The notes beneath the pieces are model-generated. The model saw only the letters and a list, made by a program, of their open reading frames with translations. It was not told where the DNA came from and made no database searches. From Clostridia bacterium (GTDB lineage: Bacteria; Bacillota; Clostridia; UMGS1883; UMGS1540), in assembly GCA_045533905.1 (NCBI GenBank), contig JAZSIR010000012.1, forward strand, positions 1 through 64,000: a stretch of 64,000 bases of DNA. Reading direction: 5' to 3'. Below, piece by piece: positions 1-22,084 of this stretch (positions are counted from its first letter, which is position 1; every line of letters begins with the position of its first letter). A program made the translations under genes and the position numbers.

Positions 1-74
1 AGTAAGTTAATAACCCAAGAAGATTATGATTTGCATATATGGATATAACCTTTTGTAAACTAATTAATTTAGGA

Positions 75-141
75 TTTTTGCCCTAACCTAACACGAACTA
101 CCAAGCTAAAACATTGTCATCTATATTATACAGTCATTATA
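75..141 (+). repeat. Intergenic junction repeat, copy A
   Basis: AACCTAACACGAACTA (85-100) matches 3474-3489 at 15/16; AAACATTGTCATCTATATTATACAGTCATTATA (109-141) matches 3497-3529 at 30/33. Confidence 0.85.
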
Positions 142-179
142 GTAAAGAATGTCGAATATTGTAGAAAGAGGTAAAATAA

Positions 180-935
180 ATGAAACAAACAGAAATTTTA
201 ATAAAGTCAACTGTAGATTATTCTATGCAACCATCATTGTTTTATAAATCGGAAACATGTGAAAAAAGACCGTTATTGGTGGGATTACATACATGGAGCC
301 ACGACAGATTTAATCAAATAAATAATATGCTACCATATGCAGAAAAATATGATTTTAATTTGTTGTTGCCGGAATTTAGAGGAAACAATTTAAAAACAAA
401 TCCTAATAGTACACAGGCATGCGGTTCTGAATTTGCAAAACAAGATATAAAAGATGCTATTGATTACATAATAGCGAACGAAAATATTGATAAAGATAAT
501 ATATTCTTATTAGGTCTTAGCGGCGGTGGGCATATGTCTTTGTTAATGGCAGGGTTTTGCCCTGAATATTTTAAAGCTATTGGGGCATATGTGCCGATTA
601 CAGACCTTGAAAAATGGACAAATCAAAACGCAAATTATCGTGATCATGTTTTGGCTTGTTGCAGTAACGATGATAAAGAAATGAAAAAAAGATCGCCTTT
701 TAACTACATAGAAAATATTGCAAAAGCAAATCTTAAAATTTTCCATGGTAAATTTGACTCTGTCGTTCCGGTGTCGCAAAGTATAGAATTATATGAGAGT
801 ATAATGTTGAAGTATCCGGATGCTCGCGTATTTCTTGATATTTTTGATGGCGGTCATGAAATTGATATGGAAACGGCTATGTATTGGATTATGTCGCAAT
901 ACCGAGGCTCAAATAAAACAACGGTCACTGGCTGA
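180..935 (+). CDS. Alpha/beta hydrolase (peptidase S9/esterase-like)
   Basis: GLSGGG nucleophile elbow, HGKFDSVVP (Asp) and GGHE (His); AGAGG RBS. Confidence 0.85.
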   Translation: MKQTEILIKSTVDYSMQPSLFYKSETCEKRPLLVGLHTWSHDRFNQINNMLPYAEKYDFNLLLPEFRGNNLKTNPNSTQACGSEFAKQDIKDAIDYIIANENIDKDNIFLLGLSGGGHMSLLMAGFCPEYFKAIGAYVPITDLEKWTNQNANYRDHVLACCSNDDKEMKKRSPFNYIENIAKANLKIFHGKFDSVVPVSQSIELYESIMLKYPDARVFLDIFDGGHEIDMETAMYWIMSQYRGSNKTTVTG

Positions 936-939
936 TATA

Positions 940-966
940 TTTTCGATTCTAATTTGACATAAACCA
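940..966 (+). repeat. Degenerate junction repeat (core only)
   Basis: TTTTCGATTCTAATTTGACATAAACCA just after the stop codon; 11/16 match to the core of copy B. Confidence 0.5.
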
Positions 967-1026
967 TGAGAATGACAAACATTAATAAAAGATAAATTTA
1001 GCAATAATATAAAGAGGAGATATAAT

Positions 1027-1662
1027 ATGTTTAAAAATCATTGGAAAGACAAATTGTGGTATGCATATGGAACATCTATGACAAGCGTACAACAAGGAGA
1101 GTATGTACCTGTTGTTGAAAAACTTTCAGGACTAAAGGTTGTAAACAAAGGAATTCCTGGTGGTTCTTTGACTCCAGACGGGTATGGAAAAGGGAATACC
1201 AAAACAGCAATTATGAATTTAGAGGACGGTAAAGAGAAAGCTGACCTTATTACGATAGATGTATTGCCGAATGAGGGGAAAAATGTTGGTGAAATTTATG
1301 ATACGGATGATGAAACGTTTTGTGGCTGTCTCAACCAATGCCTGAGATATTTACAAGAAAACACAAAGGCACAAATTGTATTAATAATAATGATTGGGGG
1401 AAATGAGAATCCGCCTGAAAAAGAAACTGAGACGAGAAAAATCACTCAATTTGAATTTGCACAGAAAATAGAACTTGTTGCAAAACTCAATTCCGTTCCT
1501 GTTATAAATGTCTTCTGCGAATCAGGGTTTGGTTATGCAAGAGTGAAAAACAGGGAATATCAACTTGACAATATCCATCTAAACAAATTAGGAGGATTAA
1601 ATATGGGTAATTTTGTTTGGAGTAAACTTAAAGATATTCCCTTATGGGAAACAGAATTATAG
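1027..1662 (+). CDS. SGNH/GDSL hydrolase family protein
   Basis: YGTSMT (block I), NKGIPG (block II), DNIHLN (block V); GAGGAG RBS. Confidence 0.8.
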   Translation: MFKNHWKDKLWYAYGTSMTSVQQGEYVPVVEKLSGLKVVNKGIPGGSLTPDGYGKGNTKTAIMNLEDGKEKADLITIDVLPNEGKNVGEIYDTDDETFCGCLNQCLRYLQENTKAQIVLIIMIGGNENPPEKETETRKITQFEFAQKIELVAKLNSVPVINVFCESGFGYARVKNREYQLDNIHLNKLGGLNMGNFVWSKLKDIPLWETEL

Positions 1663-1670
1663 TTTTTTTA

Positions 1671-1982
1671 CTCGTGTCAAGTCCTTACAATTTAAAAGAT
1701 TAGTTTGCCGATTTTGATATTTACATATATTATAATATTTACAATAAAGCCTTGCAGAGCAAGTCTTTGCGGCTTTGCCGCTAATGTGCTTCGCACATTT
1801 TGCAATATTGACGGCTTCGTAAAAATGCCCTTGCAAGCAAGCATTTTTACTTATGGTAACGGGAGCGAGAAAATCCAGTATTCTCGCGGGTTCTAATGAA
1901 TTTTGTTTAGAAAAAATGCAGTGAAAAATTAAGGGGAAAATACTAGGTCTTATTATTCACTGTTCTCCAGTCTTGACACGAG
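1671..1982. mobile_element. Non-coding element with 11-bp terminal inverted repeats (MITE-like) and four internal hairpins
   Basis: CTCGTGTCAAG (1671-1681) / CTTGACACGAG (1972-1982); stems at 1746-1776, 1783-1799, 1819-1850 and 1865-1887; no target-site duplication seen. Confidence 0.6.
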
Positions 1983-2025
1983 ATTATAAAAGAATGTCAA
2001 ATGTTGTCGAAAGCGAGGAAGATGA

Positions 2026-3462
2026 ATGAAAAAAACATATATAACATCGATGCCAAACCATATTGGTGCATTTTTAAAAGCGAGCAAGTGCTTTTCGGCA
2101 TTAGGAATTAACATTACTCGTGTAAGTTACAATAAAGCTGTAGATTCGCATACGTTGTTTATAGATGCAGAAGGAACAGAGGAACAACTGAAAAAAGCAG
2201 ATAGTGAACTTGAGAAGATTGGTTATCTTCAAAATAACAACTCAAAAACAAGCATTGTTTTATTGGAGTTTTGTCTGAAGGATGTTCCAGGTAGTGTTAC
2301 GGATGTTTTGACTCTTATTAACAAATTTAACTTTAATATATCATATATAAGCTCACAAGAGAATGGGACAAATTATCAGTATTTTAAGATGGGATTGTAT
2401 GTTGATGATTCGCAAAAAATATCTGAATTTTTGAAGGAAGTTGAAAAAATATGCAAAGTTCGAATGATAGAGTATAACAGCTCAGAGAAGGTTTATGATA
2501 ACAGTATTTTTTACAATACATATGTTATGGGCCTGGCTCAGATTATGGGTTTAACTACCGATATAAGCAAAGAGCTTTTAGTACATGTAAATCTTGCTAT
2601 GCAGACATTGGACGAACAGGGGTTGTCCCCATATCGCACCTTTGACAGCATCAGCAAATTTGCAGAATTGCTTGGGGCTTCAAAAGGAAGGAATTTTTCA
2701 CCACGCATAACTAAACACAAAATCACCGAAAAAACCGAGATAATATTGATAGAACCTCCTTGCGGAAGTAATACAATCATTATAAACAGCGACAGAAAAT
2801 ATTTGTTTATAGACAGCGGTTATGCTTGCTATAAAGAAGAAATGTTAAGCGTATTTAAAGAAATTATACCTGAATTCAATGAGATTAAAAAAACAATACT
2901 TATAACGCATGCCGATGTTGACCATTGTGGACTGTTGCCTGTATTTGATGAGGTTATTGCCAGTCATAAAACTGCAATGTGCTTAAACAAAGAATATAAT
3001 GAGAAAAACGGGTACAGGGAGGAAAATCCCCTGCACAAACCTTATATTAATATTTGCAAATTACTTACTTCGTATAAAACGGTAAATCCCAACAAGGTTA
3101 CAGCATTGTGGGATGATGTGGAAAAGCCTGCAGAACCTCTTACTCAAATTGGTTTTTTTGATTTTGGAGAACTGCATTTTGAGGTGTATGAGGGTCAGGG
3201 CGGACATCTTCCTGGAGAAATAGTTCTTATTGACTATCGAAATCATATTGCAATTACCGGGGATATTTATATTAACATCCATGGATTAACTCAAGAACAG
3301 GCAGAATACAACCAATATGCACCTATACTTATGACATCTGTTGATACTAATCCTGAGCTTTGTGCAGAAGAACGAAAGGCAATCATGCAAAGACTTGGCG
3401 TTGGCAAATGGCAAATTTATGGGGCACATGGATTTAAAAAGGATTATTCAGTTAATGTATAA
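2026..3462 (+). CDS. Tandem ACT domains fused to an MBL-fold metallo-hydrolase
   Basis: ACT-like PNHIGAFL..GINIT and KDVPGSVT..NFNIS; MBL motifs IDSG, THADVDH, GHLPG, ITGD, GAHG. Confidence 0.8.
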   Translation: MKKTYITSMPNHIGAFLKASKCFSALGINITRVSYNKAVDSHTLFIDAEGTEEQLKKADSELEKIGYLQNNNSKTSIVLLEFCLKDVPGSVTDVLTLINKFNFNISYISSQENGTNYQYFKMGLYVDDSQKISEFLKEVEKICKVRMIEYNSSEKVYDNSIFYNTYVMGLAQIMGLTTDISKELLVHVNLAMQTLDEQGLSPYRTFDSISKFAELLGASKGRNFSPRITKHKITEKTEIILIEPPCGSNTIIINSDRKYLFIDSGYACYKEEMLSVFKEIIPEFNEIKKTILITHADVDHCGLLPVFDEVIASHKTAMCLNKEYNEKNGYREENPLHKPYINICKLLTSYKTVNPNKVTALWDDVEKPAEPLTQIGFFDFGELHFEVYEGQGGHLPGEIVLIDYRNHIAITGDIYINIHGLTQEQAEYNQYAPILMTSVDTNPELCAEERKAIMQRLGVGKWQIYGAHGFKKDYSVNV

Positions 3463-3529
3463 TTTTGCTGCTCAACTTAACACGAACTATTGCCAGAAAC
3501 ATTGGCATCTAGATTATACAGTCTTTATA
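3463..3529 (+). repeat. Intergenic junction repeat, copy B
   Basis: Begins immediately after the TAA at 3460-3462; matches copy A in two blocks. Confidence 0.85.
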
Positions 3530-3553
3530 AATTTGGCGGAAGGAGTAAATAAA

Positions 3554-6048
3554 ATGAAAAAGGTATTTTATATAAGAAAAACAGTATGCATATTTTTGAT
3601 GCTGGTGATTCTTGCTACGGCTTTGCCTGTACTTTCTTATGGTTCTACCGAAACGCAAGGCAGTTGTGGAGATAACCTTACCTGGAAACTTGAATACAGG
3701 GTGTTAACCATAAGTGGCAAGGGGCAATGAAGGAATATTCCTTTGAGGACCCTTCTCCTTGGGAAGGAAGATACGACATAGGCCAGGTTATTATCGAGGA
3801 AGGTGTTACAAGTATATCTTATTGTGCATTTTCTATGTGTTCATATATGACAAGTGTTTCTTTGCCCAAAAGCATGAAAAACATACACGAATACGCTTTT
3901 GCAGGCTGTGATGGGTTAAGAGAATTTTCGGTTCATATAGAAAATCCTTATTATAAAACAGTTGATAATGTGCTTTTTACAAAGGATATGTCAAAACTTA
4001 TTTTGTATGTAGGAACAGCCTCCGAATATACAATACCACAGGGAACAAAAATTCTGGCAAGTGGCTCGTTTGATAGTTACAGATTTAGTACATTACGCAT
4101 ACCGGCATCGGTTACTACTATTGAACACGGTGCTTTTTACGGAAATAACTCTGTAAAGGATATTTACTTTGGGGGCACGAAAAAGAGTTGGGACAAAATA
4201 TATGTTGAGTGGAACCCCGACCTTGATGTAACCTATAATGAAAAACTATATATGCATTTTGATAATGACCCTGATATGAACAAGGTAACATCAGTTGAGT
4301 TCACTCAAAGGGTTTATTATGTTATCAGGGGAGAAGAAGTAAATTTGGATGTAAATATATATCCGTCTAATGCTCCCTGTAAAGATGTTTTCTTTACATC
4401 CAGAAACGGTGCGTGCGTTTTAAACAGGAAAGGTAAGCTTGTTGCTATTGAAGTGGGCGAGGCAGAAATTGAGGTTGAAACATACGACAGCCATAAAACA
4501 GCAACCTGTAAGGTTATAGTTCAACATGAACCCGATTACGACCTTTCAGAAACTATTATTTTACCCGAACAAGAGGGTAAGGTTAATAAGAAAACAATTA
4601 ACCATAATGGTGATTACACGCAAATGAATTATCGCAGCGGAAAGCCAAATTACTCTCATCTAATGAAAACCGACATTTTTGATGTAACAAAAGATTCACT
4701 TTCGATTATAGATGGTACAAACGGATATTTAAGTATTGAAAAATACGATCATAATTACAATCTTTTGAGCAAGAAAACAATACAATTCGAACTACCTTTA
4801 TACGGAGGTTTTTACAGCGCCGAAAAATACAATTTTGTGGTTTTTGGACAGGACAACCCAAACGATGACGATAACGTAGAGGTAATAAGGATTGTAAAAT
4901 ACGACAAGGATTTTAACCGATTATCGTCTTGTTCTGTTAAAGCATGCGCGACTGCATATCCATTTAGATCAGGCTCGCTAAGAATGGATTTTGACGGAAA
5001 AACACTAGCAGTACACACAGCTAGGAAACACTACAAAAGTACAGGCGAAATTACTCCTGTAAACCACCAAGGCCAGCTTAGCCTTTTAATGGATGTTGAC
5101 ACAATGAAGATAAAAAATATTTTAACTACATTTCAGGAAAATCATGTTTCGCACTCGTTTAATCAGTTTGTGCAATATGATGGCGAAGATTTGTATTTTT
5201 TAGATCATGGCGACGCATATCCAAGATCGATAATTATGTTTCAAAGAAGAAAAGGCGCTTACACATCAAGGGAGCTTTATGGCTTAAGAGGTGAGATTGG
5301 AGATAATTATACGGGCGTATTTTTAGGTGGATTTTCTGTTGATAAAAATAATATACTTGTTGCCTTTAACAGCATAAATTATGCCGAAAAAGAAAAAATT
5401 GAATATGTAAAGGGCGAAACAAGGGATATTTTATTACTTAGTGCCGAAAAAAATGGCACCAAGATAACAACAAGAAGATTTACCGACTATTTAAGAGAAA
5501 ACAAAGTAGCTTCGTTTCCATATCTTGTAAAGGTTAAAGATGGAATGTATCTTCTTATGTGGGAAGAATTTTTATACAAGTACAGCGAACTTTGGGAAAG
5601 CAATGTAGGCTATACACAGGGCATTAAATATGTGCTTGTAAATGAATACGGCAAAAATCTTTCAAAGGTATTTTACGACAAAGATGCACATTTATCGGAA
5701 CAATGTCAGCCTGTAACAAATGGCAATAAAGTTTTTTGGTTTACAAACGGTGAAAATAACCAGAGTACATTTTACTCGTTATCTTTAGAAAATATATTGC
5801 CAAAGGCAAATGTAACTACAAAAAAGGAAGACGGTAAAATTACAGTTAGCCTTGAATATGCTCCTACAAATTCAATAGTAATTTTAGCACTATATAAAGA
5901 AAAGGCTTTAGTTTCTATTAAAAAGCAAGACTATGTGGGAGAAAATGTTGTTTTTGACATATCCGAAAATTATGATAATGCAGCCGTTTATGTATGGGAA
6001 AGTATTAACACTCTAAGGCCTGTTACAAAGAAGAGCGAAGTAAAATAA
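3554..6048 (+). pseudogene. BspA-like leucine-rich-repeat / Ig-like surface protein split by a 1-nt frameshift at the G4 run 3721-3724 (or a sequencing error)
   Basis: 3554-3730 encodes a signal peptide plus GSCGDNLTW..LTISGKG then stops; one extra G gives ISGKGAMKEY in frame with ORF 3727-6048 (LRR_5 repeats IEEGVTSI, IPASVTTI; Big_2-like domain). Confidence 0.75.
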
Positions 6049-6050
6049 TT

Positions 6051-6097
6051 TAATTTTGCTCTTAAGAACAAAATTTAGCGAAATAATCCTGCATCTA
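6051..6097 (+). repeat. Degenerate junction repeat at the right edge of the AT-rich array
   Basis: TAATTTTGCT identical to 3460-3469, then CTTAAGAAC (core lacking CAC) and GCATCTA at 6091-6097. Confidence 0.45.
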
Positions 6098-6143
6098 AAC
6101 CGTATATCCCTTATATACAAGAGCATAGCAAGGAGGCGCTTCT

Positions 6144-7130
6144 ATGAAGAAAAGAATTACGGCTATTATTGTGACGATGATGCTTTTGATATCCCCGCTG
6201 GAGTCTCTTGCATACGGCTGGATGTGGGGTGTCGGCTTTTTGCCGAGCTTTCCCGTCTCTGTGAACGAGCAGGAATATAATTATAACGAATACGAAACAT
6301 TTCCGCTGCTCGTAAACGGCGGGGTGACATATTTCCCGCTCACATACAATAACGCCATGCTCTTAAACCTCATTCCCGAATATCGCGAAAATCCCTTAAG
6401 TATCGCATACACAAGAGGGAATCCCGATGCGCCAAAGGAAATTTTTAAGAAGCTTCTTATAAAAAAGGTGGAAAATCCCGAGGAAGCGCAGACGATATAT
6501 AGAGACACAAATCTCTATCAAACGCACCACCCAAAGGCCGAAAGAAATGAAAACACGTGTAACTTTGGTACGACTATCACAAAGGAGTACTGCGAACTGT
6601 TTGATATAGAACTCACCATTGACGGGCAAAACATGGTCGAGCTTTCCGAATATCCGATTTTGTATTATCGAAACATATACTATATCCCGCTTTCGTGGCA
6701 GTTTGTGACAGAGGTTCTCGGCGGCACTGTCAGCTTTGATAGTGAAAAGGGCCTCCAGGTACGCGTGAATAATTATTTTACCACTTTAAACGAAACAGAA
6801 AAAATCACGTATACCGAAAACACCTTTGTGAGAAGTCATAGCGAAAACGCCACGTATTATATTAAAGATGACCTCACGGTTTCGCTGACAACGGGGTATT
6901 ATGAACTCACCGGCGCAAGTGAACAAAATCTAAAAATCAAAAAAGGCGATAACCTCTTGGTGCCGCAAGGCTGCTTTGGCGTATTGCAGGGAGAACCCGA
7001 GTTTACGCTCTCGCCGCAGTTTACCATTGACGGCACAAAAATCAAAACGTTTGTGTCCACTTCATATCGAGGACAAAATCCCGTGCCATGCATCGTGGAT
7101 ATAGAAACGGGAGACGTAACCGAACAATAA
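6144..7130 (+). CDS. Secreted hypothetical protein with a duplicated copper-amine-oxidase-N-terminal-like motif
   Basis: Signal peptide; FPLLVNGGVTYFPLT and YPILYYRNIYYIPLS repeats; AAGGAGG RBS. Confidence 0.7.
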   Translation: MKKRITAIIVTMMLLISPLESLAYGWMWGVGFLPSFPVSVNEQEYNYNEYETFPLLVNGGVTYFPLTYNNAMLLNLIPEYRENPLSIAYTRGNPDAPKEIFKKLLIKKVENPEEAQTIYRDTNLYQTHHPKAERNENTCNFGTTITKEYCELFDIELTIDGQNMVELSEYPILYYRNIYYIPLSWQFVTEVLGGTVSFDSEKGLQVRVNNYFTTLNETEKITYTENTFVRSHSENATYYIKDDLTVSLTTGYYELTGASEQNLKIKKGDNLLVPQGCFGVLQGEPEFTLSPQFTIDGTKIKTFVSTSYRGQNPVPCIVDIETGDVTEQ

Positions 7131-19993: not shown

Positions 19994-20022
19994 TTGCTTT
20001 TTACTAAAAGCTATGCTATAAT
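19994..20022 (+). promoter_or_regulatory. Sigma-A promoter of the tRNA pair
   Basis: TTGCTT-N17-TATAAT with TG. Confidence 0.7.
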
Positions 20023-20039
20023 AGCTTTTGCTTGGTTGC

Positions 20040-20116
20040 GGAGGCATAGCTCAGCTGGTTAGAGTACTTGCTTGACATGCAAGGGGTCACTGGTTCAATT
20101 CCAGTTGTCTCCACCA
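20040..20116 (+). tRNA. tRNA-Val(GAC)
   Basis: GGAGGCA/TGTCTCC acceptor stem, anticodon arm CTTGC-TTGACAT-GCAAG, encoded CCA. Confidence 0.97.
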
Positions 20117-20121
20117 CATAT

Positions 20122-20208
20122 GCGGATATGGCGGAATTGGCAGACGCGCATGGTTCAGGTCCATGTGAAAGCAATTTCATGGAGGTTCAAGTCCTCTTAT
20201 CCGCACCA
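20122..20208 (+). tRNA. tRNA-Leu(CAG)
   Basis: GCGGATA/TATCCGC stem, CATGG-TTCAGGT-CCATG, long variable arm, CCA. Confidence 0.97.
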
Positions 20209-20245
20209 AAAAAAGACAGTAATCTTTTGATTGCTGTCTTTTTTT
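20209..20245 (+). terminator. Rho-independent terminator after the tRNAs
   Basis: AAAAGACAGTAATC..GATTGCTGTCTTTTTTT. Confidence 0.85.
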
Positions 20246-20305
20246 GATGACCTTACCAAACGAGGCACCAGAAAAGCAAAGAAATTATTTTCTGGAAGAA
20301 AAGGC

Positions 20306-20334
20306 TTGACTTACACTATTGCTTATGCTATAAT
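20306..20334 (+). promoter_or_regulatory. Sigma-A promoter
   Basis: TTGACT-N17-TATAAT with TG. Confidence 0.75.
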
Positions 20335-20395
20335 TATAGAGTATAATGGGGGAAATTCGGGAAATGTAATAAAAGGATAGAAATGGAGGATAATC

Positions 20396-22084
20396 ATGTC
20401 GATAAATTCACAGGCTATTATGCAACTTATTCAGAGCCTCATCTGGCTTCTTGCAGGCGTTGGCGTTTTTATTGTCGGAATGAATTTTATGGGAGATGCC
20501 CTAGAACGAAGTGCCGGCACCGGAATGAAACGGTTGCTTGAAAGAATAAGCAATAACAGATTTTCCGGCGTTGGTATTGGCGCCGGTGTGACAGCGATTA
20601 TTCAGAGCTCGTCAGCGACTTCGGTAATGGTTATAGGTCTTGTTAATGCAGGGGTTATGACTCTTATGCAAGCAACTCCCATAGTCATGGGTGCAAACAT
20701 CGGAACAACCATTACAGGCGTTCTGGTCGCTCTTAAAAATGATTATTTTGATATGGCAATGTACATTCTCGCTTTTGCTGGCGTAATGATGGGATTTGCT
20801 CAAAAAGAAAAGGTTAAGATTGCCGGCAGTCTTTGTTGCGGCTTAGGATTAATTTTTGTTGGTCTGAATATTATGAGCAGCGAACAGGCATTTGGAAATC
20901 CTCTTGTTGAAAATATGTTCACTGAAATTTTCAAAAGGATTAATTTTCCGCTTCTTCTGATATTGGTGGGTGTTATCTTTACTGCACTCATACAGAGTTC
21001 TTCTGCTTCTACCGGTGTTGTTATTACAATGGTTGGCACCGGCGTACTTCCGCTTGAACTTGCCCTGTTCATTGTTCTTGGTGCAAACATAGGCACATGT
21101 GTAACAGCACTTCTTGCATCTGTTGGTGCAAATGCTAACTCTAAAAGGGTTGCCCTCATTCACTTTACCTTTAATGTGATAGGAACGGTGTTTTTCGCTG
21201 CAATCATTTGGTTGTTCAAAGAACCGGTCGTTACATTATTAGTGTCTATTTTCCCGGGCAGCGACCCGATGTCGCTTCAAATGAGAGTTTCTCTTTTCCA
21301 TGTTATATTTAATACAACTACCACTTGCATGTTGCTTCCGTTTGTAAAACAACTTGTGGAGTATTCGTGTTTGATAATCAAAGAAAAGCAAGATACCAAG
21401 GAGACGTTATCTCTTAAATATGTCGATGAAAGACTTCTTTCTACACCTTCCGTTGCATTGATGCAAGTTAAAAAAGAAATTGATTATATGATTTCTTTGG
21501 CAGAAGAAAACACTCGTCTAAGCTTTATAGCAATGGAAACAGGGTCTGCTGAGCATAATGACTTAATTTGTAAAAACGAAAGAATCATTGACTTTATAAA
21601 TAGTAAGTTAACCGGATTTTTAATTAAGTTATCCGCGGCAGTTGATGAAAGAGACGAAAAAATAATTGGTTCGTATTTTCATGTTTTGAATGACCTCGAA
21701 CGTATTGGCGACCATGCTGAGAATTTTAACGAAATTGGTATTGAAATGATGAATAGGAATATTGCATTCTCTGAACACGCGCTTGAGGTGATAACAACAA
21801 TGCGTGAGACAGTAATGCAAATGTTTGCAATAGCAATGCGCACCTTTGAAACGCTCAGCAAAGAAAAGTTATCCGACCTGACACAATTAGAGAATCGTGT
21901 TGACGGTATGAAAAAAGAACTCATTGCCGGCCATTTTGCGAGACTTGCCGAAGGGAATTGCCGTATAGATGTAAGCCCCTATTTTTCATCTGTTATTATG
22001 GGTCTTGAAAGAGTTGCTGACCATCTTGTCAATGTTGGTTACAGTATTGTTAACCCTACCGGTTCGCAAAAAGAAGAGATTTGA
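20396..22084 (+). CDS. Na/Pi cotransporter family protein with C-terminal PhoU-like domains
   Basis: Duplicated QSSSA..GANIGT repeats; DLERIGDHA and LERVADH. Confidence 0.93.
   Translation: MSINSQAIMQLIQSLIWLLAGVGVFIVGMNFMGDALERSAGTGMKRLLERISNNRFSGVGIGAGVTAIIQSSSATSVMVIGLVNAGVMTLMQATPIVMGANIGTTITGVLVALKNDYFDMAMYILAFAGVMMGFAQKEKVKIAGSLCCGLGLIFVGLNIMSSEQAFGNPLVENMFTEIFKRINFPLLLILVGVIFTALIQSSSASTGVVITMVGTGVLPLELALFIVLGANIGTCVTALLASVGANANSKRVALIHFTFNVIGTVFFAAIIWLFKEPVVTLLVSIFPGSDPMSLQMRVSLFHVIFNTTTTCMLLPFVKQLVEYSCLIIKEKQDTKETLSLKYVDERLLSTPSVALMQVKKEIDYMISLAEENTRLSFIAMETGSAEHNDLICKNERIIDFINSKLTGFLIKLSAAVDERDEKIIGSYFHVLNDLERIGDHAENFNEIGIEMMNRNIAFSEHALEVITTMRETVMQMFAIAMRTFETLSKEKLSDLTQLENRVDGMKKELIAGHFARLAEGNCRIDVSPYFSSVIMGLERVADHLVNVGYSIVNPTGSQKEEI

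What the first reader, a model, noticed from the sequence alone, without database searches (positions are those of the whole stretch)
1..6100. AT-rich gene-cassette array punctuated by a recurrent YTRACACGAAC junction motif: candidate non-integron cassette system
Seen: four unrelated, same-strand genes (alpha/beta hydrolase, SGNH hydrolase, ACT-MBL, LRR surface protein), plus the likely tail of a fifth ORF ending at 48, in DNA visibly more AT-rich than the rest of the window. Nearly every stop is followed by TTTT-(N3-5)-CT-(N)-AAYYTRACAYRAACYA: 75-100, 940-966, 3463-3489 and a decayed copy at 6051-6069 near where composition shifts back. The remaining junction carries the core in both orientations (1671-1681, 1972-1982). 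Copies A and B also share a 33-bp block (30/33). Knowledge: one gene per unit, one orientation and a conserved boundary site is the layout of integron cassettes, but these sites lack the attC RYYYAAC..GTTRRRY palindrome. IS91-family HUH transposases use CTTG/GTTC (GAAC) tetranucleotides, and both occur in the composite core CTTG-ACAC-GAAC. Inference: the motifs are recombination or insertion scars of a gene-capture system whose enzyme lies left of the window or elsewhere in the genome.
Basis: partly seen in the sequence, partly recalled or inferred. Interest (0 to 1): 0.85.

Follow-up and report, generated by a model that had tools for sequence, protein, structure and literature searches.

The report
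Serine-recombinase gene cassette array
The repeated junction motif is real and matches the end signal of mobile elements that carry three serine recombinases; it separates single genes that are swapped between gut Clostridia, which likely makes this an integron-like gene-collecting system run by a serine recombinase rather than an integron integrase.

Summary
Largely confirmed. Three short junction sites and one 310-bp element (inverted arms) separate four AT-rich, same-strand genes; the 'decayed copy' at 6051 is not a site. The motif occurs in 52 of 401 Clostridia genomes from 28 genera, and the same genes recur in other arrays with other neighbours, so these are swappable cassettes. The scan noted this repeat family before on other DNA without finding an enzyme.

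New here: the element lies 200-390 bases behind one clade of triple large serine recombinases (8 of 8 loci at 72% identity or more), always at the head of the array where checked. The short site has the layout of the right end of distant triple-recombinase elements (8 of 17; background 0.01) and of published attP arms. Best reading: recombinase-less mini-elements stacked in tandem and likely moved in trans by this triplet.

Against: no close recombinase in this genome, no left end or circle found, and the exchange point mapped here lies a few bases before the published crossover. Attempts to find attC, IntI, IS91 or ISLre2 features failed or were inconclusive.

The parts
1..48 (+). tail of a fifth gene, cut by the contig start
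   Evidence: open frame ending at a stop at 46-48; window = start of contig C18
75..100 (+). short junction site A: T-tract, 8 nt, CTTGACA-like arm (degenerate right-end att arm)
   Evidence: (rank 8 of 3.1 M)
109..141 (+). 33-bp block, a second junction module with promoter-like spacing
   Evidence: 91% to 3497-3529; further copies on C1, C11, C17; consensus match 114-143
180..935 (+). cassette gene: alpha/beta hydrolase (Peptidase_S9/BD-FAE)
   Evidence: 71-76% homologues elsewhere lie outside such junctions
940..966 (+). short junction site C (degenerate)
   Evidence: rank 37
1027..1662 (+). cassette gene: SGNH/GDSL hydrolase
   Evidence: in G228 (88%) and runs X1, X5 it is followed at 1673 by a short site and the 33-bp block instead of the long element
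1667..1688 (+). left inverted arm (L) of the long element
   Evidence: reverse complement of the right arm; optional, missing in 35 of 167 core hits
1689..1966 (+). conserved core: outward promoter-like box 1705-1733, nested 126-bp hairpin repeat 1735-1860, covarying hairpin 1865-1887
   Evidence: the same core follows the third recombinase gene in other genomes
1967..1982 (+). right arm (R), the best-conserved att arm in the window
   Evidence: rank 4 of 3.1 M; exact pattern in 52 of 401 genomes
1984..2025 (+). cassette leader with a TGTCGAA box and ribosome-binding site
   Evidence: shared segment with four other genomes starts at 1984-1990; box enriched after sites
2026..3462 (+). cassette gene: ACT-ACT-metallo-beta-lactamase-fold protein
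   Evidence: 88-94% DNA copies in four genomes of four other families
3463..3489 (+). short junction site B (degenerate)
   Evidence: rank 20
3497..3529 (+). 33-bp block; recurrent breakpoint at 3529
   Evidence: three of four close copies of the upstream cassette end at 3529; LRR pieces start at 3529/3530 in runs X1, X5
3554..6048 (+). cassette gene: BspA-type LRR/Ig surface protein, frameshifted near 3720 in this assembly
   Evidence: three of four runs differ by one base there
6052..6075 (.). palindrome; not a copy of the junction site
6091..6120 (+). variant of the 33-bp block; right boundary of the LRR cassette at 6095
   Evidence: contigs of three runs stop matching at 6095

Best explanation
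The junction motif matches the right-end attachment arm of mobile elements that carry three large serine recombinases, and the array is likely a tandem stack of recombinase-less one-gene elements that this recombinase triplet would insert and reshuffle in trans. Shown: each unit is a leader, a gene and an end that is either the bare arm (T-tract, 8 nt, CTTGACA) or the arm preceded by a 185/260-bp core. The same core and arm directly follow the third gene of one recombinase clade, at the head of arrays. Identical genes appear behind different neighbours, with exchange at the arm. Inferred: the triplet binds these arms and adds an incoming circle at an existing junction, so orientation is kept and arrays grow one gene at a time; the core's outward promoter would transcribe the next cassette. 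In this genome the array is an orphan, or its recombinase lies off-contig to the left.
For: All 8 distinct loci with a homologue of the third recombinase at 72% identity or more have core and arm 207-389 nt after the gene: 7 and one held-out locus. Four were first found through the motif itself; four came from the protein search. None of 7 checked has a site upstream (2.7-66.5 kb read). A 45% homologue has a diverged core without the arm. Of 17 informative distant homologues (30-38%; 2 of 19 had under 30 nt downstream), 8 have T-tract plus CTTGACA within 700 nt and 10 within 1450 nt, none on the reverse strand, against 0.011-0.015 expected per 700 nt. Seven of 17 rows seen (of 25) in supplement 3 of PMC10083194 pair a recombinase of this type (by eye) with an attP holding the same arm. 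All three proteins keep their catalytic motifs and domains. Same-strand neighbours: 196 of 211 downstream, 183 of 203 upstream. Cassettes are shared at 88-97% between arrays with ends at the arm.
Against: No close homologue in G000 or in the 87 genomes of its order searched (best 45%), and only 5 of 399 class genomes have one, against 52 of 401 with the site. G246 has six sites and no serine recombinase domain hit. In the published attP rows the crossover lies 6 nt after TTGACA (my count on three rows), but here positions +4 to +7 travel with the downstream gene (0.81-1.0 in 31 non-independent pairs; baseline 0.30-0.53; 0.64 when the +7/+8 bases match), which puts the exchange between -7 and +3. 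No left end was found in 66 kb upstream of an intact triplet. No circle joint appeared among the joints listed (both lists were cut). The window's own cassettes also break at the 33-bp block (3529, 6095), not only at the arm. The one empty site found, in G004, lacks the arm and is not a clean junction.
Confidence: 0.55

Rival explanations
1. The arms are relics of decayed triple-recombinase elements, but today's shuffling is done by homologous or short-homology recombination between the repeated junction modules (arm, core, 33-bp block, leader), with no dedicated enzyme.
For: Several breakpoints are used: the arm, 3529 and 6095. Polymorphic positions -13, -10 and -8 follow neither neighbour. 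The core is cut at variable points on its left. Four of the recombinase loci are 5'-truncated. Window sites A, B and C are degenerate.
Against: Short sites keep the T-tract at a fixed 8-nt distance and a near-invariant 15-mer across many families. Cassettes 88-94% identical cross family borders, where long homology is lacking (inference).
Confidence: 0.25
2. The long element is an independent MITE or promoter-leader module that inserts in front of genes; arrays are just AT-rich islands decorated with it.
For: Terminal inverted arms, two size classes near 185 and 260 bp, an internal promoter-like box and a covarying hairpin, 99 plus 41 perfect pairs of two types among 195 copies; it folds as one strand (z about -3.8).
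Against: No target duplication visible in the flanks printed (by eye). The left arm is optional, orientation is almost fixed, bare right arms are common, and no IS256/ISLre2-type transposase was found in G000 (the second control was silent). Promoter matches are not enriched in the region, 27 against 27.6.
Confidence: 0.08
3. A tyrosine recombinase (integron-like or Xer-like) or an HUH transposase acts on the site, which can also be read as an 11-6-11 imperfect palindrome centred in CTTGAC.
For: The mapped exchange interval (-7 to +3) contains that centre; the two arms can pair on one strand; G000 has five tyrosine recombinases.
Against: No IntI over cut-off, best 53.7 against 265 bits (no control genome passes either). 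No GTTRRRY in five junctions. The left arm is no more complementary to the cassette's own start than chance, 6.08 against 6.05 of 12 in 50 cassettes. The one mobile-type tyrosine recombinase tested does not track the element. No recurrent tyrosine or HUH enzyme among the 45 largest clusters of 858 neighbouring ORFs.
Confidence: 0.07

Closest known systems
ICEs/IMEs with a triplet of serine integrases, and CIME accretion (PMC4701971, PMC5704250; passages read)
   Same: Three tandem large serine recombinases at the element's end, very short repeats at the junction, recombinase-less remnants stacked in tandem; same end arm as distant triplet elements.
   Different: Units here are single genes with a uniform end, spread over many loci per genome and across families; no target gene is disrupted or rebuilt at most sites; no left end or conjugation module was tied to them.
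Multi-targeting large serine recombinases and their attP sites (Durrant et al., PMC10083194; passages and 17 of 25 matching rows of supplement 3)
   Same: attP arm with T-tract and CTTGACA for recombinases of the same type (by eye).
   Different: Published attP completes a -35/-10 promoter 17 nt apart and crosses over 6 nt after TTGACA; array junctions show no -10 consensus there and exchange earlier. The passages read do not describe cassette arrays.
Integron cassette arrays and CALINs
   Same: One gene per unit, one orientation, a site after each gene, recombinase at the head of some arrays and absent from most.
   Different: No IntI, no attC core, no complementarity to the cassette's own start; the candidate enzyme is a serine recombinase triplet.
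SCC/pseudo-SCC composite islands (recalled, not from a call)
   Same: Serine-recombinase elements and recombinase-less partners stacked at one site.
   Different: The triplet scores far below the Ccr cut-offs; no single anchor gene.

Membership tests
Integron / CALIN | IntI tyrosine recombinase | tested here: not met
   TIGR02249 best 53.7 bits against 265 in G000; genome 95.5% complete; no control genome passes the cut-off either
Integron / CALIN | attC with RYYYAAC ... GTTRRRY | tested here: not met
   two RYYYAAC and no GTTRRRY in five junctions; IntegronFinder itself could not be run
Integron / CALIN | end box complementary to the cassette's own start | tested here: not met
   6.08 against shuffled 6.05 of 12, n=50
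Integron / CALIN | same-orientation array of exchangeable single genes | tested here: met
Triple serine-recombinase ICE/IME and derived CIMEs | three tandem large serine recombinases next to the element end | tested here: met
   met in related loci; not met in the window or in G000
Triple serine-recombinase ICE/IME and derived CIMEs | right-end arm T-tract ... CTTGACA | tested here: met
Triple serine-recombinase ICE/IME and derived CIMEs | crossover dinucleotide 6 nt after TTGACA | tested here: not met
   positions +4 to +7 follow the downstream gene; few, related pairs
Triple serine-recombinase ICE/IME and derived CIMEs | matching left end (attL) and short direct repeat | tested here: inconclusive
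   none recognised in 66 kb upstream in G156 or in six distant elements whose contigs were short or whose left ends lay outside the stretch read
Triple serine-recombinase ICE/IME and derived CIMEs | excision as a circle catalysed by the triplet | not testable with these tools
   contigs only; no circle joint among those listed
IS91 / HUH rolling-circle transposons | Y2 transposase | tested here: inconclusive
   none in G000, control silent
ISLre2 / IS256 (p-MULT) elements | 8-9 bp target duplication | tested here: not met
   none visible in the flanks printed (by eye, output cut)
ISLre2 / IS256 (p-MULT) elements | Mutator-type transposase | tested here: inconclusive
   PF00872 absent with a working control; PF06782 absent with a silent control
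SCC (Ccr) elements | CcrA/B/C recombinases | tested here: not met
   50-77 bits against cut-offs of 700-900

The most novel reading that the evidence does not exclude
A serine-recombinase integron: a fixed platform of three large serine recombinases, a promoter-bearing core and an att arm that captures single-gene cassettes in order, with orphan arrays (like this one) as its CALIN equivalents, spread through at least 28 genera of gut Clostridia.
Probability: 0.3. Interest if true: 0.88.

Novelty: new variant of a known kind. Interest (0 to 1): 0.72.

Why it matters
Integron-type gene capture is known as a tyrosine-recombinase process (own knowledge). A convergent version built from the end of serine-recombinase elements would explain how single enzyme, surface and sensor genes move between families of uncultured gut Clostridia. 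It also names an enzyme and a 30-bp site that can be tested on a plasmid, shows a role for the little-studied recombinase triplets, and could yield a tool for stepwise gene stacking.

Tried and rejected
ISLre2/p-MULT MITE inserted upstream of promoters: no target duplication seen, no matching inverted repeat in the supplement rows shown. attC-style complementarity: at chance level. The 281-aa tyrosine recombinase on C11: present in at least five genomes without the core and not found in five with it. A TT-centred crossover taken from one published attB: dropped after counting the row centres, though the mapped interval still allows it. Spo0A boxes as the explanation of TGTCGAA: the box is enriched (146 of 287 sites, 1 reverse), but its spacing from the arm is 7, 12, 13 or 15 nt, and I could not decide between an operator and part of the att site. 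Rfam: no match. No match for the element in viral contigs, phages or plasmids. No RNA holder listed. One search's 23 of 41 overstates the spread, since some hits are only the nested hairpin repeat; two searches were used instead. One search folded the wrong coordinates and was discarded. L321 and L322 repeat contigs L014 and L042 and were counted once.

Full report
Observation. The window is the start of contig C18 of a 1.57-Mb genome. Bases 1-6100 have GC 0.344 against 0.481 for the rest and hold four same-strand genes: an alpha/beta hydrolase, an SGNH hydrolase, an ACT-metallo-beta-lactamase-fold protein and an LRR/Ig surface protein. A matrix built from 99 sites of other genomes ranks these 8th, 37th and 20th of 3.1 million positions, the arm at 1973 4th, and the proposed fourth copy at 6051 only 20,589th. 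The stretch 1667-1982 is one element with inverted arms. It recurs twice on contig C11 behind AT-rich genes.

Spread. One exact 30-letter pattern found 132 stretches before the scan stopped at its limit, some on the same contigs; the 80 titled records are Clostridia MAGs such as Congzhengia and Ructibacterium. The right arm is in 52 of 401 genomes of the class, in 28 of 218 genera; the reversed control gave 2 hits. The left arm with core start is in 24 of 58 genomes of the order. Nothing was found in viral contigs, phages or plasmids.

Anatomy. Two site types share CC-N-G-W-CTTGACA-(CG/AA)-A. The short type has five T eight bases before CTTGACA. The long type has a core of about 185 or 260 bp with a promoter-like box, a hairpin with two perfectly paired variants (99 and 41 of 195 copies) and usually an inverted left arm (absent in 35 of 167 core hits). 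Of 223 sites 15 lie inside ORFs. The next gene is on the same strand in 196 of 211 cases, a median 55 nt away; the previous gene in 183 of 203. A TGNCGAA box follows within 60 nt in 146 of 287 sites, once in reverse; 0.025 per site is expected.

Cassette exchange. Many genes recur in different arrays at 88-97% identity with matches ending at the arm, and one gene may follow a short site in one genome and a long element in another. The ACT-MBL unit is 88-94% identical in four genomes of four other families, starting at 1984-1990 and, in three, ending at 3529. The SGNH gene is followed by a short site instead of the long element in G228 and in two runs. The closest relative, G004 (86%), has a different gene plus one short site in front of the gene at 6144. 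After tgt, G004 lacks a 1.5-kb two-gene insert that G000 carries, but that empty site has no arm.

The enzyme. Clustering 858 neighbouring ORFs gave one recombinase cluster among the 45 largest: large serine recombinases. In four contigs the last gene of a triplet lay directly before core and arm. A search of 399 genomes gave 6 loci at 72-100% identity and 19 at 31-37%. Two of the six repeat contigs already seen. All six, plus L052 and a held-out locus in G479, have the arm 207-389 nt behind the gene: 8 of 8 distinct loci. None of 7 checked has a site upstream, and five have further sites downstream within 8 kb or a further left arm. A 45% homologue has a diverged core but no arm. All three proteins carry Resolvase, Recombinase and zinc-ribbon domains and intact catalytic motifs; about 42 database clusters are 71% identical or more.

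The short site is the generic right end of such elements. Eight of 17 informative distant homologues have T-tract plus CTTGACA within 700 nt of the gene, ten within 1450 nt, none reversed, against 0.011-0.015 expected. In supplement 3 of PMC10083194 I saw 17 of 25 rows holding CTTGACA. Seven pair a recombinase that looks like the third gene (by eye) with an attP carrying this arm. PMC4701971 (passages) describes triplets of serine integrases with 2-8 bp repeats. PMC5704250 (passages) describes tandem accretion with recombinase-less CIMEs.

Results against. G000 has only distant serine recombinases (about 31-37% at best), the order has none above 45% in 87 genomes, and G246 has six sites but no serine recombinase hit; incomplete assemblies and action in trans could explain this, but it is not shown. 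Counting the centres of three published rows puts the crossover 6 nt after TTGACA, which fits several distant right ends. In the arrays, however, positions +4 to +7 follow the downstream gene (31 pairs, 0.81-1.0; 22 same-upstream pairs, 0.23-0.45; baseline 0.30-0.53), and matching at +7/+8 raises the baseline only to 0.64. The pairs are related, and 20 of the 22 involve the long repeat, in which homologous exchange could blur linkage. The window's cassettes also break at a second module, the 33-bp block. No left end and no circle (lists cut) was found.

Mechanism. Shown: sites, arrays, exchange, and the physical link between element and recombinase clade. Inferred: the core and arm are the native right end of a triplet element; derivatives that kept this end and one gene are cut out and added at existing junctions by the triplet in trans, and the core's promoter would serve the next gene. 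I put this at 0.55, relic arms shuffled by ordinary recombination at 0.25.

Comparison and novelty. It works like an integron array but fails the integron tests. It is closest to triplet ICE/IME-CIME accretion, without meeting the crossover-register test. Four searches (listings only) showed no paper on this repeat or on serine-recombinase cassette arrays; subscription journals are not covered, and one supplementary file of PMC3942029 could not be searched. The scan's notes describe the same repeat family on other DNA without an enzyme and a parallel triplet-linked stack at spoIVB; a look-up with the recombinase-plus-core stretch returned nothing. I rate it a new variant of a known kind, interest 0.72.

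Noticed in passing
window 1735-1860; G000 C19:20440-20488, C3:9265-9316: A separate multi-hairpin repeat sits in the core just behind the -10-like box; other copies also lie behind promoter-like boxes and end in GCATC like the 33-bp block.
   Followed up: partly
window 109-141, 3497-3529, 6091-6120; C1:109433-110977; C11:86456-89170; C17:54555: The 33-bp block family marks cassette borders on its own (breakpoints 3529 and 6095) and may be a second recombination or promoter module.
   Followed up: partly
window 3554-3730 and 3727-6048: One LRR surface-protein gene split by a frameshift near 3720; three of four gut runs differ by one base there.
   Followed up: partly
window 6144-7130: The 328-aa gene has no Pfam or NCBIfam hit, is shared only with G004 among 25 relatives, and is replaced by 324 other bases in one contig of run X5.
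   Followed up: partly
G000 C11:86000-94400, 104500-106700, 126000-127400: Three more cassette loci in the same genome, carrying glycosidase-like, methyltransferase-like and unknown genes (functions by eye).
   Followed up: partly
L161:3583-3975 and G000 C11:127093-127419: A TIGR04076-family gene followed by a short site lies at different loci in G000 and G004.
   Followed up: yes
L329 (G256:C49): A distant (38%) recombinase's own end is joined directly into the middle of the core, which then ends in the usual arm.
   Followed up: no
L333, L326, L339 right ends: Distant triplet elements end in frame with remnants that look like RHS/YD-repeat and amidase genes, probably their targets (by eye).
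   Followed up: no
L311:16672-18672 (G156:C30): A 666-aa reverse-transcriptase-domain gene lies 4.5 kb upstream of the recombinase triplet in a 60-kb island with type III restriction genes.
   Followed up: no
window 20001-22000: A second low-GC dip (0.39-0.41) not examined.
   Followed up: no
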